Shown here piece after piece: positions 1 to 50,086 of a DNA stretch of 54,233 nt. The DNA is taken from assembly GCA_040878325.1 (NCBI GenBank), contig JBBDMM010000015.1, positions 1-54,233 on the forward strand. The letters run 5' to 3'. How positions within the stretch are numbered: position 1 is the first letter of the stretch; every line of letters begins with the position of its first letter. Made by a program: the position numbers and the translations under genes. The DNA is from Acidimicrobiia bacterium. GTDB lineage: Bacteria > Actinomycetota > Acidimicrobiia > Spongiisociales > UBA11373. The notes under the pieces were generated by a model. It had not been told where the DNA came from. It was given only the letters and a program-made list of their open reading frames with translations, and did not search any database.

Positions 1-48
<48 letters not shown>

Positions 49-1470: not shown

Positions 1471-1546
1471 TGGTGGGTCGGGTGGGAATCGAACCCACAA
1501 CCTTCGGGTTAAAAGCCCGCTGCTCTGCCAATTGAGCTACCGACCC
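1471..1546 (-). tRNA. tRNA-Lys (anticodon TTT)
   Basis: Minus strand reads GGGTCGGTAGCTCAATTGGCAGAGCAGCGGGC-TTTTAA-CCCGAAGGTTGTGGGTTCGATTCCCACCCGACCCACCA: 76 nt, cloverleaf, TTC T-loop, encoded CCA. Confidence 0.97.
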
Positions 1547-1623: not shown

Positions 1624-1674
1624 TCTTGCGGGAGGCGGGTGGCCCTCCTGCTGGAGACTGGCGACTGGAGACTG
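1624..1674. repeat. Intergenic heptamer repeats with TCTTGC end motif
   Basis: tcttgcgggaggcgggtggc followed by ctggaga-ctggcga-ctggaga-ctg immediately before the ATG at 1678. Confidence 0.7.
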
Positions 1675-1677
1675 AAA

Positions 1678-3486
1678 ATGATCGCGTTTGGTGTTTCCGG
1701 GCTCCCACCCGAAGACGGGGACGACGCGGCGTTTCTCGACGGCCTGGCCGCCCGGGGGCACCGCGCGTATGAGTTCGCCTTCGTGAAGGGCTTCCCGTGG
1801 AAGGAGAAGCGGTGCGCTGCCTTCGGGGCACTCGCCGCCGAGCGCGGCATCGCCATCTCGATCCACGCCCCCTACTTCGCCATCCTCACCTCCGACGACC
1901 CCGAGAAGGCGAAGCTCACCCGCTCGGCGCTCGAGCACACCATGAAACTGGGAGCGGCCTTCGGCAGCCGGGTGATCGTGGCGCACACCGGCTACACCAA
2001 GGGTCGGCCACCCGACGAGCTGCACGCCTTGGCGGCTAAGAGCCTCGAGGTGATCGAGCCCAAGGTGCGCCATCTGGGGGTGGCCCTCGGCCTGGAGGTC
2101 GGCGGGTCCGATCGTGCCTTCGGAACCCTCGGCGACATCGCCCTCATCGCCGGGAACTTTCCCTTCGTCCACCCGGTGGTCGATTGGGCTCACCTTCATG
2201 CCATGTCGCGGGGGGCCTTGACCAGCAAGGAGGCCTTTCTCGGAGTTTTCGCATTCCTGCGCGACAACTTCCCGGGCTGGTCGCTCGATCCGCTCCATTG
2301 CCAGTTCACCGACAACGAATTCGGGCACGCCGGGGAGATCCGCCACCTTCCGTACGGCGAAGGGTCGTTGCGGGTGACCCCGCTGGTCGAAGCGGCAGTC
2401 GAAGCAGGGATGCGGATGACCCTTATCTCCGAGGCCAGGGAGGGGTCGAGCCATGAGGCGATCCAGGCGGAGTTGGAGCAGGCGCGGTCGGCAACGCGGT
2501 CGCCGGCGCAGAACGATGACGACACCCGCTCACTCGCCTCGGGGTCCGTGCCCTTCCCCGCTGGGGTCCAGGTCCGTGCCGAAGCCGACGGATGGATTCC
2601 AGTCGGCCGGGATCGCCAGGTGCGCCTCACCAACATCGACAAGCCGTTCTTTCCCGACGGCTATACGAAAGGTGATTTGATCGCCTATTACGCGGCGATC
2701 GCCCCACTGCTGCTGCCCCATTTGCGTGACAGGGCGATCGTGCTGGCCCGGTTCCCCGACGGGGCCGACGGCGACTGGTTCTATGAGAAGCGGGCACCAT
2801 CACACGCGCCGGAATGGCTGCCGACGGCGCCGCTGTGGTCCGGCCACAAGGGGGAGGACATCGACTTCGTGACCGCACCCGACGTCGAGTCGTTGATGTG
2901 GATCGCCAACCTCGGTGCCATCGAGATCCACCCCTGGTTGAGTCGGATCCTCACTTCGACGGAGCCCGATTTCGCCATCTTCGACCTCGACCCGGCCGAG
3001 GGCGCCGAATGGGACCAGGTGGTCACTGTGGCCAAGGTGATCCGGGTTGCGCTCGAGCGCCTCGGGCTCGCCGGCTACCCCAAGACCTCGGGTGCCACCG
3101 GCCTCCACATCTACGTGCCGCTCGATCCAGTGCACCCCTACGAGCGGGTACGGAAGTTCATCGAGACGGTGGGTCGTCTCGTCGTCGGCGCGGACCCGAG
3201 CCTGGCGACGATGGAGTGGGACATTCCCAAGCGCAAGGGCAAGGTGTTCATCGACCACAACCAGAACGTCGGCGGCAAGACGATTGCCTCGGTGTATTCG
3301 GTGCGCCCCCGCCCCGGTGCACCCGTGTCGACCCCCATTCTGTGGGACGAGGTCGGCGCAGTGAATCCATCGGACTTCACCATCGCCAGCATCTGGGACC
3401 GCGTCGCCCGCCACGGCGACCTCTTCGCGCCGGTCCTGAGAGGCGGGCAGACGCTAGATCGCGCGGAGAGCACACTCGGGAACTAG
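1678..3486 (+). CDS. Fusion: endonuclease IV-like (AP endonuclease family 2 TIM barrel) + LigD/Prim-PolC-type AEP primase-polymerase
   Basis: N-half has HAPY, VAHTG, GLE, DWAHLHA, GEIRH, ISE (Nfo metal ligands). C-half has LTNIDKPFFP..TKGDLIAYY, IFDLDP, KTSG..GLH, FIDHNQN, SVRPRPGAPVSTP. One uninterrupted frame. Confidence 0.9.
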   Translation: MIAFGVSGLPPEDGDDAAFLDGLAARGHRAYEFAFVKGFPWKEKRCAAFGALAAERGIAISIHAPYFAILTSDDPEKAKLTRSALEHTMKLGAAFGSRVIVAHTGYTKGRPPDELHALAAKSLEVIEPKVRHLGVALGLEVGGSDRAFGTLGDIALIAGNFPFVHPVVDWAHLHAMSRGALTSKEAFLGVFAFLRDNFPGWSLDPLHCQFTDNEFGHAGEIRHLPYGEGSLRVTPLVEAAVEAGMRMTLISEAREGSSHEAIQAELEQARSATRSPAQNDDDTRSLASGSVPFPAGVQVRAEADGWIPVGRDRQVRLTNIDKPFFPDGYTKGDLIAYYAAIAPLLLPHLRDRAIVLARFPDGADGDWFYEKRAPSHAPEWLPTAPLWSGHKGEDIDFVTAPDVESLMWIANLGAIEIHPWLSRILTSTEPDFAIFDLDPAEGAEWDQVVTVAKVIRVALERLGLAGYPKTSGATGLHIYVPLDPVHPYERVRKFIETVGRLVVGADPSLATMEWDIPKRKGKVFIDHNQNVGGKTIASVYSVRPRPGAPVSTPILWDEVGAVNPSDFTIASIWDRVARHGDLFAPVLRGGQTLDRAESTLGN

Positions 3487-3502: not shown

Positions 3503-3596
3503 GGTTCTGCGATGCGCAATGTGCAATGCGCAATGCGCGACGCGTCTAGGTCCTCGTTGGCTCCAACGCGCTGCTCATTGCTGATTGCGCATCGCG
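3503..3596. repeat. Inverted heptamer-repeat hairpin element (GCGCAAT/ATTGCGC family)
   Basis: ggttctgcgatgcgcaatgtgcaatgcgcaatgcgcg ... cattgctgattgcgcatcgcg between convergent genes. Confidence 0.8.
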
Positions 3597-3616
3597 GGCC
3601 GGGGCGCAGCCCCGGC

Positions 3617-5601: not shown

Positions 5602-6474
5602 ATGAAGAGGCTTCATCTGCTCGATGGAACCTACGAGCTGTTCCGGTCTCACTTTGGGGCACCGTCGCGGTTGTCGCCCGACGGGAGCGAGATCGGGGCC
5701 GTTCATGGGATCGTCGCGTCGACACTCAACCTGCTGCAGGAAGATGGGGTGACCCATCTCGGGGCTGCGTTCGATACGGTCATTCGGTCGTTTCGCAACG
5801 ACCTGTACCACGGCTACAAGACCGAGGTGGGGGTTCCCCCGGAGTTGCTGGCACAGTTCCCGATCGCTGAAGACGCGCTCGACGCAATCGGTGTGACTGT
5901 GTGGCGGATGCGCGAGTACGAGGCGGATGATGCGATTGCGTCGGCGGTCGTCAGGTACGGCGGCGATTTCGAGCAGGTGGTGATCCTGTCCCCTGACAAG
6001 GATCTCCGCCAATGTGTCGACGGCCAGCGGGTGGTGGGCTTCGATCGCCGTCAGGGGATCTTCATCGACGAAGCGGGGGTCGTCGAGAAGTTCGGCGTAT
6101 CGCCCGCGTCGATCCCCGACTACCTCGGCCTGGTGGGCGACAGCGCCGATGGATTCCCGGGCGTCCCTGGATGGGGAGCCAAATCGGCCTCGGTGGTGCT
6201 GGCCGAGTACCGGCACATCGAGAACATTCCGCTCGAAGTCGGTCTGTGGTCGGTGTCGGTCCGGGGAGCGCTACGGCTGGTGGAGTCGTTGCGGGAGCAC
6301 ATGGGCGACGCGCTCCTCTTCAGGTTTCTCGCTCGACTTCGACCCGACGTGCCGCTCACCGAGACCACCGAGGATCTCCGCTGGAAGGGCGTGCCCCGGA
6401 AGCGATTCACCGACTTCTGCGACCGGTACGGATTCGACACCATTCGCGACCGCCCGCGGGTGTGGGCGGATTAG
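5602..6474 (+). CDS. Stand-alone 5'-3' exonuclease / flap endonuclease (PolA N-terminal-like)
   Basis: LLDG, FRNDLY.GYK, YEADD, SPDKD, LVGDSADGFPGVPGWGAKSA (H3TH) motifs. Confidence 0.92.
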   Translation: MKRLHLLDGTYELFRSHFGAPSRLSPDGSEIGAVHGIVASTLNLLQEDGVTHLGAAFDTVIRSFRNDLYHGYKTEVGVPPELLAQFPIAEDALDAIGVTVWRMREYEADDAIASAVVRYGGDFEQVVILSPDKDLRQCVDGQRVVGFDRRQGIFIDEAGVVEKFGVSPASIPDYLGLVGDSADGFPGVPGWGAKSASVVLAEYRHIENIPLEVGLWSVSVRGALRLVESLREHMGDALLFRFLARLRPDVPLTETTEDLRWKGVPRKRFTDFCDRYGFDTIRDRPRVWAD

Positions 6475-14367: not shown

Positions 14368-15036
14368 ATGTGCGGTCGATTCGTCCAGGCCCAGAGCGCC
14401 CAGTCCTACGCCGACCACTTCGGGGCGGGCTTGGCGCTGCCCGAGTCGCTCGATCCCTCGTGGAACGTCGCGCCAACCGACGAGGTCTACGCAGTCGCTC
14501 AACACGAGGGCGCGCGGACTCTGGGGAAGTTCAAATGGGGACTGATCCCCTGGTACTCGGATTCACCGAAGGTCGCTTCGAAGCACATCAACGCCCGGGC
14601 GGAGACGGTTGCCTCGAAACCGGCCTTCAAGGATTCCTTCGCTCGTCGCCGTTGCATCGTCCCGGCCGACGGGTTCTACGAGTGGGAGCGGCTCGAGTCG
14701 GGCGGGAAGCTGCCCCACTTCATCCACTCGATCGACGGGGAGCCGCTCGCCCTGGCGGGACTCTGGGCCTCGTGGCGCGACCCGGAGGGCGAGCGGATCA
14801 CCACTTGCACCATCGTCACCACCAAGCCGAACGAACTCGTCGGCAAGATTCACGACCGAATGCCGGTGGTGCTCCCGTCCGATACATGGGAGCGCTGGCT
14901 CGACCCCACCTTTGACGACGCAGGGTCGTTGCGGTCGATGCTGGTGGCAGCCGACCGACTGATCGAACACCCGGTCTCGACCCTGGTCAACAGCGTGATG
15001 AACAACTTTCCGGAGTGCGCCGAACCCCTCCGGTGA
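14368..15036 (+). CDS. SOS response-associated peptidase (SRAP/YedK/HMCES family), abasic-site protecting
   Basis: N-terminal MCGRF, NVAPT, WGLIP, INARAET, DGFYEW, IHDRMPV. Confidence 0.95.
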   Translation: MCGRFVQAQSAQSYADHFGAGLALPESLDPSWNVAPTDEVYAVAQHEGARTLGKFKWGLIPWYSDSPKVASKHINARAETVASKPAFKDSFARRRCIVPADGFYEWERLESGGKLPHFIHSIDGEPLALAGLWASWRDPEGERITTCTIVTTKPNELVGKIHDRMPVVLPSDTWERWLDPTFDDAGSLRSMLVAADRLIEHPVSTLVNSVMNNFPECAEPLR

Positions 15037-19921: not shown

Positions 19922-20001
19922 GCCACCAGTCACCAGTCACCAGTCACCAGCCAACAGCCACCAGCCACCAGCCACCAGCCTCTGGCCGTGGGCCGTGGGC
20001 C
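19922..20001. repeat. Heptamer repeats (CACCAGT/CACCAGC)x~8 + (GGCCGTG)x2
   Basis: gccaccagtcaccagtcaccagtcaccagccaacagccaccagccaccagccaccagcctctggccgtgggccgtgggcc. Confidence 0.85.
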
Positions 20002-20017
20002 CTCTTATCCTTCCTTT

Positions 20018-21784
20018 GTGGTTTCTAATGCCGACATTGCTCGCCATCTCTATGAAATGGCGCGGCTCGCAACTCTTGCCGAAGGGTCCAGCAATGCCTT
20101 TCGGGTTCGCGCCTACGAGACGGCGGCTCGCACCATCGACGGGCATCCCGACGCGGTGGCGGAGATGACCGGGCCTCAACTCACCGAGCTGCGCGGCGTG
20201 GGCAAGAGCACGGCGGAGAAAATTCGCGAACTTGTCGAGAAGGGCTCGATCGCGCGGCTCGAGGAGCTGCGGGCACTGTTCCCCGCTGGCTTCGTGGCGC
20301 TCACCCGGGTTCCCGGCATCGGGCCGAAGACGGCGGTGCGCCTGCGCGACGAACTGGGAATCTCGAGTGTCGAGGAACTGCGGGCGGCCATCGACCGACA
20401 TGAGCTGCGCGACATGCCGGGCATGGGGGAGAAGACCGAGGAGAACATCCGCAACTCGATCGAGCGCCTCGGTGTCGGCGGGAAGGAGAACCGAACCCCG
20501 ATCATCGAGGCGATAGGTGTCGCCCGCGAGGTCTGCGAGGCACTCCTCGGAGTGCCGGGCGTCCGATCCGCCGAGCCGATGGGGAGCCTGCGTCGATTCC
20601 GCGAGACCATCGGCGACATCGACATCATCGCGGTGACCAAAGGTGATCCGGAGGAAGTGATGCAGCGGTTCGTGGGGCTGGCCATCGTGCAGGAAGTGGT
20701 CGGGTACGGGGCCCGCAAGTCGGCCATCATCGGGAGGCAGGGGATGCAGATCGACCTACGGGTCGTGGAGCCTGCTGAGTTGGGGTCGGCGTCCGTCTAC
20801 TTCACCGGCTCGAAGGCGCACAATATCCGCTTGAGGCAGATGGCTCTCGACCGGGGCTGGACGCTGAACGAGTACGCCCTCTCAGAGATCGACACGGGGA
20901 AAGTCGTTGCCTCGAGGACCGAGGAGGACGTGTACGCCGCTCTCGGTCTGCCGTGGATTCCGCCCGAGATCCGCGAGGACGACGGCGAGATCGAGGCCGC
21001 GCTCGACGGCTCGCTTCCGAAGTTCGCCACAGAGAGGGGATTGAAGGGTGACCTGCACGTTCACACCGACCTCAGTGGCGACGGCCACGTGTCGCTGGAC
21101 GAGGTGATCGCCGCGGTCGCGGAACGCGGTTACCGGTACGTCGCGATCACCGACCACGCCGAGGATCTCACGATCAACGGCGCCACCCGCGACCAGCTTC
21201 TCAGCCAGCGCCGGGCGATCGGGCGGCTGCGCCGCCGCTATCCCGACCTGGCCATCCTCCAGGGGCTCGAACTGAACATCGGGGCCGGCGGCACCATCGA
21301 CTACGACCCGGATTTCCTTTCTGGTTTCGACTTTGGCGTGGCCAGCGTCCACAGCCAGTTCCGGCTTTCCCCGAAGAAGCAGACCGCCCGGGTGGTCGCC
21401 GCGATGCGCAACCCGGCGGTGAATGTCATCGGACACCTCACGGGCCGGCGAATCGGGAAGCGGCCGGGTATCGACCTCGACATCGACGCGGTGCTGGCGG
21501 TGGCCGTCGAGACCGGCTGCGCGCTCGAGATCAACTGCCACCTCGACCGTCTCGACACCCCGTCCGAAGTCCTTCGCCGGGCCATCGAGCACCCGGAGGT
21601 GGTGTTCGCCATCAGCACCGACACCCACCGCCTCCACGAACTGGACAACACGGTAAATGGCCTCCGCCTCGCCCGCCGGGGCTGGGTCGACCGCAGCCGG
21701 GTGGTGAACACCTGGCCGCAAAAGAAGTTCCTGGCGTGGGTGAAGAGGAAGCGCAATTCGCAATTCGCAATTCGCAATACGTAG
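20018..21784 (+). CDS. polX: DNA polymerase X with PHP domain
   Basis: FRVRAY, HhH GVGK/GIGPK, GSLRR..ETIGDID, IDLR, FTGSKAHN; PHP domain DLHVHT, ITDH, GHLTGR, STDTH. Confidence 0.95.
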   Translation: MVSNADIARHLYEMARLATLAEGSSNAFRVRAYETAARTIDGHPDAVAEMTGPQLTELRGVGKSTAEKIRELVEKGSIARLEELRALFPAGFVALTRVPGIGPKTAVRLRDELGISSVEELRAAIDRHELRDMPGMGEKTEENIRNSIERLGVGGKENRTPIIEAIGVAREVCEALLGVPGVRSAEPMGSLRRFRETIGDIDIIAVTKGDPEEVMQRFVGLAIVQEVVGYGARKSAIIGRQGMQIDLRVVEPAELGSASVYFTGSKAHNIRLRQMALDRGWTLNEYALSEIDTGKVVASRTEEDVYAALGLPWIPPEIREDDGEIEAALDGSLPKFATERGLKGDLHVHTDLSGDGHVSLDEVIAAVAERGYRYVAITDHAEDLTINGATRDQLLSQRRAIGRLRRRYPDLAILQGLELNIGAGGTIDYDPDFLSGFDFGVASVHSQFRLSPKKQTARVVAAMRNPAVNVIGHLTGRRIGKRPGIDLDIDAVLAVAVETGCALEINCHLDRLDTPSEVLRRAIEHPEVVFAISTDTHRLHELDNTVNGLRLARRGWVDRSRVVNTWPQKKFLAWVKRKRNSQFAIRNT

Positions 21785-21935
21785 GAACGGGAAACACTCT
21801 CTCGGCGGTGGGGCGATCGGCCGCGCCGCGGTTTCTGCGATGCGCGATGCGCAATGCGCGGACTCATTGGGCCCTCGGACGCGGTCTTCGCATTGCGCAT
21901 TGCGTATTGCGCATCGCGAATCGCGAATCGCGAAC
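21752..21935. repeat. Nested heptamer elements: (CGCAATT)x4, GCGCAAT/ATTGCGC hairpin, (CGCGAAT)x3
   Basis: cgcaattcgcaattcgcaattcgcaatac ... ggtttctgcgatgcgcgatgcgcaatgcgcg ... cgcattgcgcattgcgtattgcgcatcgcgaatcgcgaatcgcgaa. Confidence 0.85.
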
Positions 21936-36971: not shown

Positions 36972-37667
36972 ATGGCCGGCTGCTGCGACCCATCCGGATA
37001 TCGGCAGGTATTCAACAAACGCGAAGCCCGCCGGGCGGCCCGGGCGTACCGGCGCCGCGGGCTCGACTCCACCGCCCGGCCGATGGTCGCGGCTCTCGCG
37101 GCGAGGGGGATCGATGGGGCATCCGTGCTCGAAGTTGGCGCGGGGGTGGGGTCGGCGCAGGTGGCGCTCCTCGAAGCCGGTGCCCGGTCAGGAGTCGCCT
37201 ACGACCTCTCGCCTGCCCACAAGGAGGTGGGCGAGGACCTGCTGGCGGAACACGGGTTGACAGATCGCGTCGAGTGGAGGACTGGCGACTTCGTCGCTGA
37301 TAGGGCCGCACCGCAAGCCGACGTCGTGTTCCTCAATCGGGTGGTGTGTTGCTATCCCGGCATCGAGCTCGTAGACGCGGTCGCGTCCCGCTCGGTTCGG
37401 CTGCTGGCCATGGCGTATCCGCGGGACCGATGGTGGGTGCGTGCCGGGGTACGGGCGCTGAACGGCTTCCTGCGGATCGGGCGAACCACCTTTCGGGTCT
37501 TCGTGCACCCAACCGCCGAGGTCGGACGGCGAGTTGCCGCCGCCGGGCTCCGAGAAGTCGCGTCGGGGCGGAACCTGATGTGGGAGTGGCACGTCTGGGA
37601 ACGTCGACAGTCAGCGACGACCGCGACGGCGCAGGTAGGCGTGCCAGATCAGATGGGCGGCGGCTGA
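36972..37667 (+). CDS. Class I SAM-dependent methyltransferase
   Basis: VLEVGAGVG motif I, GDF, ADVV.LNRVVCCYP. Confidence 0.85.
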   Translation: MAGCCDPSGYRQVFNKREARRAARAYRRRGLDSTARPMVAALAARGIDGASVLEVGAGVGSAQVALLEAGARSGVAYDLSPAHKEVGEDLLAEHGLTDRVEWRTGDFVADRAAPQADVVFLNRVVCCYPGIELVDAVASRSVRLLAMAYPRDRWWVRAGVRALNGFLRIGRTTFRVFVHPTAEVGRRVAAAGLREVASGRNLMWEWHVWERRQSATTATAQVGVPDQMGGG

Positions 37668-38225
37668 CCGACGGGGAGCCCACTCCTCGGCGATGGCGCG
37701 GAGTGCTCGTTCGCTCGGAGGCTCGGACCCGCCCCTGAGTTCGTGCCATCCGAGACGCAGCGCCAGGTCTCCGGCCGGAAAGACATCGCGGTGGCCGGCA
37801 CAGAAGATGAGGAAGCATTCTGCGGTCCAGCGGCCGATTCCCCGCAGAGCAGTGAGTTCTGCCACCACCTCGTCAGCTGTGCCGGCCGAGGCGCGGGCAA
37901 AGTCCAGACCGTCGAGTGCGGCCCTCGCCAGGCCCCGGGCGTACTCGGCCTTCATGCGAGTAAACCCGCAGGCCCGCATCGTGGCGTCGTCCATTGCGAG
38001 CAGCGCCTCCGGCGTGACGGTTCCCAAGGTCACCCGCAGTCGCCGGAACATCGCATCGGCCGCCTCGATCGACACCAGCTGCCCAAGGATGAGATGGATC
38101 ATCCCGGCAAAGCCGGGCTCGAGGAACTCCACCGGTACCGGTCGGGGGACGGCGGCGAACAGCGGGTGGCGCCGGCCGAGTACGGCCATGTCGCGGCGGA
38201 TCGCGGTCACCCGGGGATCGGTCAT
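37611..38225 (-). CDS. DNA-3-methyladenine glycosylase II (AlkA/HhH-GPD)
   Basis: ILGQLVS..AA, LRGIGRWTA, DVFPAGDLAL, WAPRRS.AA..IW. Confidence 0.9.
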   Translation of the reverse strand: MTDPRVTAIRRDMAVLGRRHPLFAAVPRPVPVEFLEPGFAGMIHLILGQLVSIEAADAMFRRLRVTLGTVTPEALLAMDDATMRACGFTRMKAEYARGLARAALDGLDFARASAGTADEVVAELTALRGIGRWTAECFLIFCAGHRDVFPAGDLALRLGWHELRGGSEPPSERALRAIAEEWAPRRSAAAHLIWHAYLRRRGRR

Positions 38226-38275
38226 GGTCGGGACCATACGGGCCCGTGATACTTGCAAGCTGGCCCGATACCACG

Positions 38276-38353
38276 CGATGAAGCGCTCCACTGGAGCGCT
38301 TCATCGAACGTTCGTATCGGATCCATCGGGAAGGCACCGCGCCGGTGCTTCCC
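38276..38353. terminator. Two hairpins between the DUF2188 gene and alkA
   Basis: CGATGAAGCGCTCCA-c-TGGAGCGCTTCATCG (38276-38306) and GGGAAGGCACCG-cgc-CGGTGCTTCCC (38328-38353). Confidence 0.55.
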
Positions 38354-38916: not shown

Positions 38917-41900
38917 CTACGAGCAGCCCATCGAGTTTCCGCAGTTGAGGCAGCGGTAGCACGACCCGTTGCGAACGGTGATGTGGCCGCAGGTGTCGCA
39001 GAGGGGGGCGTCGCCCATCATCTCGCCCAGGGCGGCCTGCATCGAAGCCGTTTGTGTGGCCGCCGCCGTCGCCTTTGCCGTGACTGCCACCATCGTCCCG
39101 CGCGACTTGCCGTTGCCGTTGCCGGCATGCCCCTTGCCGTTGGTCGCGGTGACCTGCGGCTTGGCCACCGCCGGGTGGCTGATCGGAGCGGTCAGCGGCA
39201 TGTCGTCGTCGAGGCCAAGCTGCACTCCTGCGTCGACGGCGAGGCCACTGGGTGGCTCAGGGAGCTCACCGACCTCCTTCGGAGGGATCTGCACCAGGTC
39301 GGTTCGGCCGAGGTACTCCATCCCGAGCGAGCGGAAGACGTAGTCGATGATGGAGTTGGCCATCTTGATGTTGGGATGGCCCTCCACCATGCCTCTCGGC
39401 TCGAACGTCTGGAACGTGAACGACTCGACGAACTCCTCGAGGGGAACCCCGTACTGGAGACCCTTCGATACCGCGATCGCGAAGCAGCCGAGGATGCCCC
39501 GCAGTGTCGCCCCCTCCTTGGCGAGGTCGATGAACAGCTCGCCGAGCGTGCCGTCTTCGTATTCGCCGGTGCGGAGGAAGATCTTGTGGCCGCCGACCTT
39601 GGCCTCCTGGGTCCAGCCCTGGCGTCGTGACGGAAGCAAGAACCTCGGGCGATTCACCCCGTGGTACGCCTGGGTCGGGCTGATCCCCGGGGCAAACGTC
39701 CCGGTGACGAGCCGCGCCTCGGCATCGATCGCGTTGGCGAGTTCCTCCGATTCGTCTTCGTGTGAGTCGCCTTCACCGGTGGTGGAGGACAGTGGCTGGC
39801 TGGCCTTCGAACCGTCCCGGTACAGCGCCATCGCCTTCAGTCCCAACTCGGCGGAGAGGGCGTACGAGTCCTCGATGTCACCGATCTCGACCTCGTGGGG
39901 CATGTTGATCGTCTTCGAAATCGCCCCCGAAATGAACGGCTGGGCTGCCGCCATCGCCCGGATGTGGCCGGTGTGATGAATGAAGCGGACCCCGTGCTTG
40001 CCGTTCTTGTTGGCGCAATCGAACACCGGCAGATGGTCGTCCGCCAGATGCGGGGCACCCTCGATGGTCTGAGTGCCGCATATCACCCGGTTGGCCTCGT
40101 CGATGTGCACCGGAGTGAACCCGAGGGCGCGCAACAGGTCGAAGTCGAATGAGGTGTACTCGTCTTCATCGAATCCGAGCCGTTGCAGTGCGGACTCGCC
40201 GACCACGAACACGTTGAACGCGTGCCGTAGCTCGAAGACACCGGGCAGCGTCGCCTCGATCGCGTCGATCTCGCTGTCGTTGAAGCCCGTGGCGCTCAGC
40301 GACTCCCGGTTCACATGGGGGGTTCCGTCGAGGGTCATGGTGCCCACTACGTAGTCGACGATCTCGCGCCGCTGCTCCTCGTCGTAACCGAGGCGGCGGA
40401 GCGCCGGATCGATCGACTGGTTGGCGATCTTGAAGTAGCCGCCTCCGGCCAGCTTCTTGAACTTGACCAAAGCGAAGTCGGGCTCGACCCCGGTGGTGTC
40501 GCAATCCATCAGCAAGCCGATGGTCCCGGTCGGTGCCAGCACGGTGGCCTGGGCATTGCGGTAGCCATACTCCTCACCCATCGCCACCGCGTGGTCCCAG
40601 GACTCGCGGGCGGCGGCCAACAGATGGTCGGGGCACAGGTCGGGGTCGATGCCGACGACGCGGTGAGTGACACCGTCGTACTCGGACGGGTCGGCGTTGT
40701 ATGCGGCCCGGCGATGGTTGCGCATCACCCGGAGCATCGACTCGCGGTTCTCGGAGAACCGGGGGAATGGGCTCAGCACCGCCGCCATCTCCGCCGACGC
40801 CGCGTAGGCGTCGCCTGTGAGGACCGCGGTGAGCGCACCCGTGATCGCCCTGCCCTCGTCCGAGTCGTAGGGGATGCCCTGGCGCATCAACAGCGATCCC
40901 AGGTTGGCGAAGCCCAGCCCGAGCGTGCGGTAGTCGTACGACCCCTGGGCGATCTCCTGCGACGGGAAGTGGGCCATGGTGACCGAGATCTCGAGCACCA
41001 TCGTCCACAGCCGGATGGCGTGCTTGTAGCCCTCGATGTCGAATGCCCCGGTCTCGTCGTCGTAGAACGTCACCAGGTTGAGGCTCGCCAGGTTGCAGGC
41101 CGTGTTGTCTATGAACATGTACTCCGAGCAGGGATTCGACGCCCGGATGGGCCCGCCTGCGGGGCAGGTGTGCCATTGGTTGATGGTGGTGTCGAACTGC
41201 ACCCCGGGGTCGGCGCACGCCCAGGCGGCCTCGGCGATCTGACGCCACAGGTCGCGGGCCTTCATCGTCTTCATGACATGCCCGTCGATACGCGCGGTCA
41301 GCTCCCAGTCACCATCCTCAGCCACCGCCCGGATGAACTCCTCGCTTACCCGGACGGAGTTGTTGGAGTTCTGGCCCGAGACCGTCTGGTACGCCTCGCC
41401 GTTGAAGTCGGAGGGGTAGCCGGCGGCGATCAGGGCGCGCACCTTCTCTTCCTCGATCTTCTTCCAGTTGATGAAGAGCTCGATGTCGGGGTGGTCGATG
41501 TCGAGGATGACCATCTTGGCGGCGCGGCGGGTGGTGCCACCCGACTTGATGGCTCCGGCGGCGCGGTCGCCGATCTTGAGGAACGACATGACTCCGGACG
41601 ATTTGCCGCCACCGGAGAGGGTCTCGTTCTCGGCGCGCAGGCTCGAGAAGTTGGTGCCGGTGCCCGAGCCGAACTTGAACAGCCGGGCCTCGCGGGTCCA
41701 GAGGTCCATGATCCCGCCCTCGTTCACCAGATCGTCGTTCACCGACTGGATGAAACAGGCGTGTGGAGCGGGACGGGTGTAGGAGTCGTCGGAGGGAACG
41801 ACCTGACCGGTCGCCTCGTCGACGAACCAGAAGCCCTGCGCCGGCCCGGTGATCCCGTAGGCGTGGTTGAGCCCGGTGTTGAACCACTGCGGGCTGTTGG

Positions 41901-42315
41901 GGGCGGCGATCTGGTGGACGAGCATGAACGCGAGTTCGTCCTCGAAAGCCTGGGCGTCGGCCTCGGTGGCGAAGTAGCCGTACTGCTCACCCCACATCCG
42001 CCAGGTGGAGGAGAGACGGCCGATCACCTGGCGGGCGCTGCGCGCGCGCGCGCGCGCCGGGTTGCCGTCGTCGTCGACAATCAGGTCGCCCGCTTCGTCG
42101 CGCTGCGGAACCCCTGCCTTACGAAAGTACTTCGACACCATGATGTCGGCTGCGACCTGCGACCAGGTGGCCGGAACCTCGGCGTCCTTCATCTCGAAGA
42201 CCACCGATCCGTCGGGATTCGCAATCCGGGAGGTTCGGGTGCTCCACTCGGCCGTGTCGAACGGATCGGTTCCCGCATCCGTGAAGTAGCGGCTGATTCT
42301 GAGCCCGTCACCCAT
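38917..42315 (-). CDS. nrdJ: Vitamin B12-dependent (class II) ribonucleotide reductase
   Basis: PNSPQWFN, ACFIQ, GSGTG.N, SNPCSE, APTGTIG, GAISKTIN, C-terminal CxxC..CxxC..GCS; ATG 42315 preceded by AGGGAGG. Confidence 0.96.
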   Translation of the reverse strand: MGDGLRISRYFTDAGTDPFDTAEWSTRTSRIANPDGSVVFEMKDAEVPATWSQVAADIMVSKYFRKAGVPQRDEAGDLIVDDDGNPARARARSARQVIGRLSSTWRMWGEQYGYFATEADAQAFEDELAFMLVHQIAAPNSPQWFNTGLNHAYGITGPAQGFWFVDEATGQVVPSDDSYTRPAPHACFIQSVNDDLVNEGGIMDLWTREARLFKFGSGTGTNFSSLRAENETLSGGGKSSGVMSFLKIGDRAAGAIKSGGTTRRAAKMVILDIDHPDIELFINWKKIEEEKVRALIAAGYPSDFNGEAYQTVSGQNSNNSVRVSEEFIRAVAEDGDWELTARIDGHVMKTMKARDLWRQIAEAAWACADPGVQFDTTINQWHTCPAGGPIRASNPCSEYMFIDNTACNLASLNLVTFYDDETGAFDIEGYKHAIRLWTMVLEISVTMAHFPSQEIAQGSYDYRTLGLGFANLGSLLMRQGIPYDSDEGRAITGALTAVLTGDAYAASAEMAAVLSPFPRFSENRESMLRVMRNHRRAAYNADPSEYDGVTHRVVGIDPDLCPDHLLAAARESWDHAVAMGEEYGYRNAQATVLAPTGTIGLLMDCDTTGVEPDFALVKFKKLAGGGYFKIANQSIDPALRRLGYDEEQRREIVDYVVGTMTLDGTPHVNRESLSATGFNDSEIDAIEATLPGVFELRHAFNVFVVGESALQRLGFDEDEYTSFDFDLLRALGFTPVHIDEANRVICGTQTIEGAPHLADDHLPVFDCANKNGKHGVRFIHHTGHIRAMAAAQPFISGAISKTINMPHEVEIGDIEDSYALSAELGLKAMALYRDGSKASQPLSSTTGEGDSHEDESEELANAIDAEARLVTGTFAPGISPTQAYHGVNRPRFLLPSRRQGWTQEAKVGGHKIFLRTGEYEDGTLGELFIDLAKEGATLRGILGCFAIAVSKGLQYGVPLEEFVESFTFQTFEPRGMVEGHPNIKMANSIIDYVFRSLGMEYLGRTDLVQIPPKEVGELPEPPSGLAVDAGVQLGLDDDMPLTAPISHPAVAKPQVTATNGKGHAGNGNGKSRGTMVAVTAKATAAATQTASMQAALGEMMGDAPLCDTCGHITVRNGSCYRCLNCGNSMGCS

Positions 42316-42399
42316 GAGGACCTCCCTGTCCTGGTGCGCTTCGTGCGCCGCTTCCGTTCGTCTGGGGACCGTGACCGCAAGGGTCGACTTGTCCACAGC

Positions 42400-42447
42400 C
42401 ACAAGATGTGGTGGTCGAGGAAGTGAAGGACCACTACTTGATGTGGA
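42400..42447 (-). promoter_or_regulatory. Tandem NrdR boxes
   Basis: cacaagatgtggtggt (42400-42415; reverse ACCACCACATCTTGTG) and cactacttgatgtgga (42432-42447), 32 bp apart, upstream of nrdJ. Confidence 0.75.
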
Positions 42448-49958: not shown

Positions 49959-50086
49959 AGCGCAATGCGCAATGCGGCAAACCGCCGATCGCGTCGATTG
50001 GTGCTCACGCGTTGCGCATCGCGCATCGCGCATCGCGAGAACCCCCTAGGACGGACCGCCCCTCTACGGCGAATCGCCAATCGCCC
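49959..50086. repeat. Inverted heptamer hairpin (GCGCAAT / GCGCATC) + AATCGCC repeats
   Basis: gcgcaatgcgcaatgcg ... ttgcgcatcgcgcatcgcgcatcgcgagaacc; gaatcgccaatcgccc. Confidence 0.8.

What the first reader, a model, noticed from the sequence alone, without database searches (positions are those of the whole stretch)
1678..3486. Endonuclease IV-primase/polymerase fusion: a possible one-protein 'cut-and-fill' base-excision repair enzyme
Seen: one continuous ~602-aa frame with an AP-endonuclease-2 TIM barrel (~1678-2480), a linker, and a complete AEP polymerase domain (~2617-3486) with intact DxD, SGxxGxH and D motifs. The N-terminal motifs (HAPY, DWAHLHA, GE.RH, ISE) resemble the archaeal-type Nfo subfamily. 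The ORF has no ligase or phosphoesterase domain, and there is no ku gene in the window. Known: LigD normally joins Pol to PE and ligase domains for NHEJ, while mycobacterial Prim-PolC/LigC act in excision repair. Inference: this is a Rosetta-stone fusion in which AP incision hands a 3'-OH straight to a gap-filling polymerase. One expected His ligand appears to be Gln (LHCQF versus LHxHF), so nuclease activity may be altered. I do not recall this architecture being characterised.
Basis: partly seen in the sequence, partly recalled or inferred. Interest (0 to 1): 0.82.

Follow-up and report, generated by a model that had tools for sequence, protein, structure and literature searches.

The report
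EndoIV-like barrel fused to end-joining polymerase
One real, conserved gene of uncultured Acidimicrobiia joins an endonuclease-IV-like barrel to a LigD-type repair polymerase; it travels with the break-binding protein Ku, so it likely cleans blocked DNA ends and fills gaps during double-strand-break joining, an arrangement that no paper I found describes and that nobody appears to have tested.

Summary
The fusion is real: one 602-aa frame, AP_endonuc_2 barrel (aa 23-267) plus LigD Prim-Pol (aa 330-583), found in 100 of 131 genomes of the order. The polymerase lacks Prim-PolC Loop 3 and groups with Ku-linked LigDs. It is this genome's only Prim-Pol; Ku and an NHEJ ligase lie elsewhere without one. 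Presence tracks Ku (95 both, 5 fusion only, 12 Ku only, 19 neither). Canonical Nfo is kept in 128 of 131, and a PolX-PHP lies in this window. The barrel keeps 8 of 9 metal-ligand positions; the His-to-Gln change is family-wide and an Asn needed for duplex AP cleavage is missing. A reverse-order (Pol-barrel) fusion exists in another Actinomycetota lineage. Against: one genus keeps the gene with no Ku, ATP-dependent ligase or PolX found. No activity has been measured. Best reading: a 3'-end-healing plus gap-filling NHEJ module standing in for LigD's phosphoesterase (0.55). New variant of a known kind. The scan found this fusion before in at least ten other genomes.

The parts
1678..3486 (+). Single ORF, 602 aa (P0001): EndoIV-like barrel fused to LigD-type polymerase
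   Evidence: AlphaFold2 mean pLDDT 94.3, pTM 0.90
1667..1670 (+). GGAG, likely ribosome-binding site, 7 nt before ATG 1678
   Evidence: sequence
1678..2496 (+). Archaeal-type endonuclease IV-like TIM barrel (aa 1-273); ligand positions H63, H103, E140, D169, H172, Q209, E220, H223, E252; wedge Y66
   Evidence: PF01261; fold match to T. maritima and E. coli Nfo, Z 26.6-25.4, rmsd 2.6-2.9; columns
1882..1884 (+). I69, position of the complementary-strand Asn of EndoIV (N75/N76); Asn in 0 of 86 Actinomycetota-clade barrels
   Evidence: role of N76 from PMC6341776 passage
2302..2304 (+). Q209 in place of the sixth metal-ligand His; Gln in 73 of 77, His in 9 of 9 other Actinomycetota-clade barrels
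2497..2583 (+). Linker aa 274-302; short low-confidence loop then predicted strands
   Evidence: pLDDT 70 in aa 271-280, over 90 after; bridged by contigs in three runs
2584..3483 (+). LigD-type Prim-Pol (PolDom): catalytic D436, D438, D526; 5'-phosphate pocket N319, K322, K331; no Prim-PolC Loop 3
   Evidence: PF21686, TIGR02778; columns and tail length; fold Z 37.3 to 5dmu

Best explanation
The gene encodes one protein with an endonuclease-IV-like barrel joined to a LigD-type polymerase, and it likely serves as the end-cleaning and gap-filling part of a split Ku-dependent end-joining system. Shown: two domains, intact polymerase catalytic and 5'-phosphate residues, 8 of 9 barrel ligand positions, a separate Ku and NHEJ ligase in the genome with no polymerase or phosphoesterase beside them, and co-occurrence with Ku. 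Inferred: Ku would recruit the protein to a break through the polymerase domain; the barrel would remove 3' blocks (3'-phosphate and sugar remnants, perhaps an AP site next to the end) to leave a 3'-OH; the polymerase would anchor on the downstream 5'-phosphate and fill the gap, probably with ribonucleotides; the stand-alone ligase would seal. The barrel would thus replace LigD's phosphoesterase with an unrelated fold.
For: Only Prim-Pol in a 98.9%-complete genome. Ku (TIGR02772, 293 bits) and a stand-alone NHEJ ligase (TIGR02779, 250.6 vs cut-off 227.75) lie about 1.1 kb apart on contig C16 with no Pol; no PE found. In 131 genomes of the order: fusion and Ku 95, fusion only 5, Ku only 12, neither 19 (Fisher p 1e-10, overstated because kin are not independent), while canonical nfo is in 128 of 131. 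80 of 95 Ku-plus-fusion genomes have no PE found, against 6 of 12 Ku-only genomes. In 5 of 5 Ku-only genomes checked in family f2, an ORF with PE, Lig and Pol matches (open frames of 833-869 aa) lies about 2.5 kb from Ku. G017 holds only remnants of both Ku and the fusion. Pol tree: fused Pols sit with Ku-linked Pol-PE-Lig LigDs (SH-aLRT 97) apart from Loop-3 paralogues (100) (similar); mean identity 52% to 24 Pol-PE-Lig domains, 36% to 12 Prim-PolC-like. EndoIV enzymes remove 3' blocks (PMC6341776, PMC5663958 passages). The Asn needed for duplex AP cleavage in T. eurythermalis EndoIV is missing. Other fusion-bearing lineages G288 and G145 also have Ku plus ligase with no Pol in the 14 kb fetched.
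Against: No activity or binding measured. The gene is never next to ku or a ligase in the 59 loci examined. Three genomes of genus g20 (95-100% complete) keep the fusion with no Ku, ATP-dependent ligase or PolX found. An NHEJ-type ligase at E 1e-60 or better was found in only 65 of 100 fusion genomes and in 1 of 23 of family f10. Across all 131 genomes PE and fusion are not anti-correlated (16/84/7/24, p 0.42); G145 has a stand-alone PE and G185 a full Pol-PE-Lig LigD as well as the fusion. Five Ku-only genomes checked (G382, G384, G370, G395, G360) have Ku plus ligase without the fusion; G384 has the orthologous Pol alone. The three M. tuberculosis Ku-contact residues (PMC13717202) are not conserved (R461, K493, T497), although two of the three also differ in the nearest Ku-linked LigDs. 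The AU test against grouping with Prim-PolC is only borderline (p 0.044). B. subtilis LigD works without any PE (PMC8656161 passage).
Confidence: 0.55

Rival explanations
1. Ku-independent cut-and-fill enzyme: the barrel nicks 5' of an abasic site or cleans a single-strand break and the polymerase fills the gap, as main or second role.
For: H63, H103, E252, Y66, R222 and H223 match residues tested in archaeal EndoIV. Retained in genus g20 with no Ku, ATP-dependent ligase or PolX found. This genome has no Prim-PolC/LigC and no xth found. EndoIV was the best partner of Prim-PolC in vitro and LigD also contributes to oxidative-lesion repair (PMC5663958 passages). A 5'-3' exonuclease gene is near it in 14 of 59 loci.
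Against: No Loop 3. Canonical nfo in 128 of 131 and PolX in 87 of 100 fusion genomes, so it does not fill a gap left by them. Lost with Ku while Prim-PolC-like paralogues stay (G008, G014). Asn75 equivalent lost, His-to-Gln at a ligand.
Confidence: 0.27
2. The barrel is catalytically weakened and acts mainly as a damage- or end-binding module that positions the polymerase.
For: Q209 in 73 of 77; Asn75 equivalent lost; Phe at the Arg37-like position by alignment. A Pyrococcus Nfo-like protein missing key residues was inactive (PMC2770678). High pTM 0.90 predicts a fixed domain packing.
Against: Eight ligand positions are invariant or nearly so in 77 of 77 (E252 76 of 77), and His is kept at 209 in 4 of 77 and in 9 of 9 other clade members, including both other fusion types.
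Confidence: 0.12
3. The barrel acts on a non-DNA substrate (sugar epimerase-like or CbiR-like phosphodiesterase) and the fusion is incidental.
For: Best PDB profile hit is the uncharacterised MJ1311; Foldseek E-values mix epimerases and EndoIV; weak CbiR hits for relatives.
Against: Structure alignment ranks 13 EndoIV entries first among barrels (Z 26.6-24.9); EndoIV ligand pattern kept; fusion to a repair polymerase in two domain orders.
Confidence: 0.06

Closest known systems
LigD (Pol-PE-Lig; M. tuberculosis, P. aeruginosa) and split NHEJ sets such as Methanocella paludicola Pol (PDB 5dmu)
   Same: PolDom fold (Z 37.3, rmsd 1.7 to 5dmu), catalytic aspartates, 5'-phosphate pocket, Ku and NHEJ ligase in the genome, an end-processing domain joined to Pol.
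   Different: No ligase in the chain; the end-processing domain is an EndoIV-like TIM barrel, not PE; not in an operon with ku.
Mycobacterial Prim-PolC / LigC with EndoIV (PMC5663958)
   Same: EndoIV-type 3' processing followed by Prim-Pol gap filling; 36% identity by structure alignment, Z 37.1.
   Different: No Loop 3; no LigC or Prim-PolC in this genome; nuclease fused; travels with Ku.
Endonuclease IV, archaeal type (P. furiosus PF0258, T. eurythermalis EndoIV) and bacterial Nfo
   Same: TIM barrel, 8 of 9 ligand positions, HAPY wedge Tyr, terminal catalytic Glu; nearest unfused relatives include proteins named from Methanobacteriota, Micrarchaeota and Diapherotrites archaea.
   Different: His-to-Gln, Asn75 equivalent lost, far below nfo cut-offs (18 vs 129.65 bits), fused to a polymerase, coexists with canonical Nfo.
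Bacterial PolX-PHP (B. subtilis, T. thermophilus)
   Same: One chain with a repair polymerase and a trimetal barrel that has AP-endonuclease and exonuclease activity (PMC7893174 passages): the one-protein cut-and-fill idea is already known.
   Different: Unrelated polymerase family and barrel; a PolX-PHP is encoded separately in this same window (19988-21784).

Membership tests
LigD polymerase domain (Prim-PolD) | AEP fold with three catalytic aspartates | tested here: met
   TIGR02778 over cut-off; D436, D438, D526 in 76 of 76
LigD polymerase domain (Prim-PolD) | 5'-phosphate pocket (Asn, Lys, Lys) | tested here: met
   N319 75/76, K322 75/76, K331 76/76; pocket described in PMC5663958 section 11
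LigD polymerase domain (Prim-PolD) | Ku and an NHEJ ligase in the genome | tested here: met
   G000; Ku in 95 of 100, ligase (E 1e-60) in 65 of 100 fusion genomes
LigD polymerase domain (Prim-PolD) | Physical or functional interaction with Ku | not testable with these tools
Full LigD | Ligase and/or PE domain in the same chain | tested here: not met
   only barrel and Pol
Prim-PolC | Conserved C-terminal helix plus Loop 3 | tested here: not met
   19 residues follow F583; 12 of 12 LigC-type paralogues have 51-72 with the YPK-type loop
Prim-PolC | Linked to a LigC ligase gene | tested here: not met
   No ligase cluster among neighbours of 59 loci; one ATP-dependent ligase in G000, of NHEJ type
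Endonuclease IV (Nfo) | TIM barrel of the EndoIV type | tested here: met
   Z 26.6, rmsd 2.6-2.8 over 265-267 residues to T. maritima Nfo
Endonuclease IV (Nfo) | Nine metal ligands | tested here: not met
   8 of 9 positions kept, one as Glu for Asp as in the archaeal type; Q209 for His. Part of the E. coli numbering (R37, H109, E145, D179, H182, H216, D229) is recalled
Endonuclease IV (Nfo) | AP-site recognition residues Tyr72, Asn75, Arg230 | tested here: inconclusive
   Y66 73/77, R222 60/77 (Lys 12), Asn75 equivalent 0/77; roles from PMC6341776
Endonuclease IV (Nfo) | AP endonuclease and 3'-diesterase activity | not testable with these tools
   needs assay

The most novel reading that the evidence does not exclude
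An archaeal-type EndoIV has been recruited into bacterial end joining as a second, unrelated end-healing module: it was joined to the Ku-type polymerase at least twice (barrel-Pol and Pol-barrel), lost duplex AP-site contacts, and forms a rigid two-active-site unit that hands a freshly cleaned 3'-OH straight to the polymerase, replacing the LigD phosphoesterase across a whole order.
Probability: 0.3. Interest if true: 0.75.

Novelty: new variant of a known kind. Interest (0 to 1): 0.55.

Why it matters
Surveys of bacterial NHEJ count Ku, Pol, PE and Lig domains; these proteins are labelled simply 'LigD' or 'NHEJ DNA ligase' although they have no ligase. If right, bacteria have a further way to build the end-joining kit, with an EndoIV-type healer that could also deal with abasic sites beside a break. 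A 602-aa two-domain enzyme with natural His and Gln variants and both domain orders is a direct test of end-healing-to-polymerase hand-over.

Tried and rejected
Chimera or frameshift: rejected. Strain-specific decay at Q209: rejected. Prim-PolC membership: rejected. Replacement of housekeeping Nfo or PolX: not supported. Conserved repair operon around the gene: not found; commonest neighbours were rhodanese 24, HisA-like 21, 5'-3' exonuclease 14 and aldehyde dehydrogenase 14 of 59 loci. A suspected barrel-Pol-Lig triple fusion in G185 (889-aa open frame) was only upstream open frame. Overall PE/fusion exclusion: not significant. Promoter/terminator scan: 0 sites. Sequencing runs: no RNA holder listed. 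ESM Atlas gave only AP_endonuc_2 clusters and had no structure. The careful Pol tree did not finish; quick trees were used. Literature: eight full-text searches listed no paper describing the fusion; supplements were not read and subscription journals are not covered.

Full report
Observation. Window 1678-3486 (+) is one open frame of 602 aa. Pfam gives AP_endonuc_2 at aa 23-267 (84 bits) and LigD_Prim-Pol at aa 330-583 (297 bits). NCBIfam gives ligD_pol over its cut-off and only weak nfo scores (18 bits). The fusion is not an assembly artefact. Of 870 proteins of 331-1054 aa that match the barrel, 119 of the 120 listed also carry the polymerase family. 57 of 59 genome loci have both domains in one frame; the other two run off the locus end. 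Contigs of related strains in runs X5 and X7 bridge the linker, and one X1 contig (possibly the source) spans the gene without differences. Record titles name mostly Acidimicrobiia and Actinomycetota.

Structure. AlphaFold2 on 144 sequences gives pLDDT 94.3 and pTM 0.90. A pTM this high for two domains predicts a fixed arrangement; I could not inspect the coordinates. The polymerase matches the Methanocella NHEJ polymerase, Prim-PolC and M. tuberculosis PolDom at Z 37.3-35, which does not separate them. The barrel matches EndoIV entries best (Z 26.6, rmsd 2.6-2.8), ahead of MJ1311 (24.8) and sugar epimerases (23.8 or less). Foldseek E-values alone mix the two groups.

The barrel. In 77 distinct Acidimicrobiia-type fused barrels, H63, H103, E140, D169, H172, E220 and H223 are invariant and E252 is present in 76. 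Position 209 is Gln in 73 and His in 4; it is His in 9 of 9 other members of the clade and in 86 of 92 more distant unfused relatives. The mapping to EndoIV rests on alignment with canonical Nfo from these genomes and on HMM alignments; part of the E. coli numbering is recalled. The Asn six residues after the first His is present in 74 of 92 distant relatives and in 0 of 86 clade members (four of the 92 later proved to belong to the clade). In T. eurythermalis EndoIV the N76A mutant lost activity on duplex AP sites (PMC6341776, passages). The loss predates the fusion, since unfused clade members share it. A FastTree tree places the clade (support 100) inside archaeal-type Nfo-like proteins, away from canonical Nfo, with all fused barrels together (support 90, including one unfused protein). 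The named distant relatives include archaeal proteins. I did not align the characterised Pyrococcus or Thermococcus enzymes themselves.

The polymerase. D436, D438 and D526 are invariant in 76 of 76 and the 5'-phosphate pocket is kept. Prim-PolC is defined by a C-terminal helix and Loop 3 (PMC5663958, section 11). Twelve of 12 LigC-type paralogues from the same order have this tail; the fusion ends 19 residues after F583. Identity is 52% to Pol-PE-Lig LigD domains and 36% to those paralogues. In quick IQ-TREE trees the fused polymerases fall in a clade with Ku-linked LigDs (SH-aLRT 97, 32 rows chosen from the loci in hand; 92, 65 rows, where the reverse fusion fell just outside). Forcing them with Prim-PolC is rejected only narrowly (p-AU 0.044).

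Genome context. G000 (98.9% complete) has one Prim-Pol, this one. It has Ku and a stand-alone NHEJ ligase about 1.1 kb apart on contig C16, no PE found, a canonical Nfo (374 bits vs cut-off 244), a PolX-PHP in this window and no xth found. In 131 genomes of the order, at least 90% complete, the barrel is in 100, Ku in 107, nfo in 128, PolX in 105, PE in 23 and an NHEJ-type ligase (E 1e-60) in 78. Fusion against Ku is 95/5/12/19; kin are not independent, but joint absence is seen in several genera of families f1, f2 and f12. Among the 12 Ku-only genomes, 6 have PE; the 5 checked carry a PE-Lig-Pol ORF beside Ku and G036 has a broken set beside Ku. Five others have Ku plus ligase without the fusion, one with the orthologous Pol alone; G002 was not examined further. 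G017 has remnants of both Ku and the fusion. The unpublished G039 is one genome in the counts of 41 and 131 and one row; four unpublished genomes are in the denominator of 301; no claim depends on them.

Results against. Genus g20 (3 genomes) keeps the fusion with no Ku, ATP-dependent ligase or PolX found. Family f10 has fusion and Ku in 23 of 23 but an NHEJ-type ligase in 1 of 23 at my threshold; other ATP-dependent ligases exist in the one f10 genome. PE and fusion are not exclusive overall (p 0.42). The gene is never beside ku. M. tuberculosis Ku-contact residues (PMC13717202, abstract and sections 4 and 23) are not conserved.

Wider range. In 301 genomes of the phylum the barrel clade is in 11: six of this order, two forward fusions elsewhere (G288, G185), one reverse fusion (G145) and two unfused copies in unrelated surroundings. 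The reverse Pol-barrel order is seen in P0132, P0298, P0299 and P0300. Holding all fused polymerases in one clade is rejected narrowly (p-AU 0.032). This fits two or more fusion events, or shuffling of linked genes; it is not proof.

Mechanism. Most likely (0.55) the protein is the healing and filling half of a split NHEJ system. Ku would recruit it through PolDom, the known Ku-binding hub (PMC13717202). The barrel would turn blocked 3' ends into 3'-OH, an activity of EndoIV (PMC6341776, PMC5663958, passages). PolDom would fill the gap and the separate ligase would seal. All steps after domain content and gene distribution are inferred. A Ku-independent excision or single-strand-break role (0.27) may coexist, as LigD itself contributes to such repair (PMC5663958, passage), and best explains genus g20.

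Novelty. Eight searches listed no description of this architecture. Passages searched in PMC10140301, bioRxiv 10.1101/869602, PMC8656161 and PMC12008989 do not mention it; PMC2770678 and PMC7893174 were read as passages; no supplements were read. The parts are known and a one-chain AP-endonuclease-plus-polymerase exists as PolX-PHP, so this is a new variant of a known kind. Earlier notes of this scan report the same fusion in other genomes; I had reached the Ku-linked reading before seeing them. The reverse-order fusion, the missing Asn and the Loop 3 test were not in the lines shown to me. Interest 0.55.

Noticed in passing
window 19988-21784 (+): PolX with HhH, Pol-beta thumb and PHP domains, a known one-chain repair polymerase/nuclease, 16.5 kb from the fusion; present in 105 of 131 genomes.
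   Followed up: partly
window 14368-15036 (+), 37614-38291 (-), 5602-6474 (+): Further repair genes in the window: SRAP family (abasic-site protection, role recalled), HhH-GPD glycosylase, stand-alone 5'-3' exonuclease. The exonuclease is near the fusion in 14 of 59 loci.
   Followed up: partly
window 1624-1674 and 3503-3611: Two different short intergenic repeats flank the gene; each gives about 60 BLAST hits in the genome, with further copies in the window near 21819-21918 and 50005-50043.
   Followed up: partly
window 1471-1546 (-): tRNA-Lys(TTT) lies divergently 131 bases upstream of the fusion.
   Followed up: no
L150:2438-8364 (G145): A stand-alone LigD phosphoesterase sits in a cluster with genes that look like nth, fpg, dinB and another AP_endonuc_2 barrel, away from ku; labels other than PE and the barrel are read from sequence, not scanned.
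   Followed up: no
G030, G338, G350 (L180-L182): Genus g20 keeps the fusion with no Ku, ATP-dependent ligase or PolX found; its barrel has F39 to L/I and H259 to T.
   Followed up: partly
L118:2706-3330 and L119:3720-4253 (G017): Remnants of both ku and the fusion gene in one genome.
   Followed up: partly
L152:13847-17017 (G288): Genes that look like RuBisCO large and small subunits and a LysR regulator lie 4 kb from that genome's fusion; read from sequence, not scanned.
   Followed up: no
window 1-46: The contig begins with a run of C, likely an assembly edge artefact.
   Followed up: no
window 38920-42402 (-): Class II B12-dependent ribonucleotide reductase.
   Followed up: no
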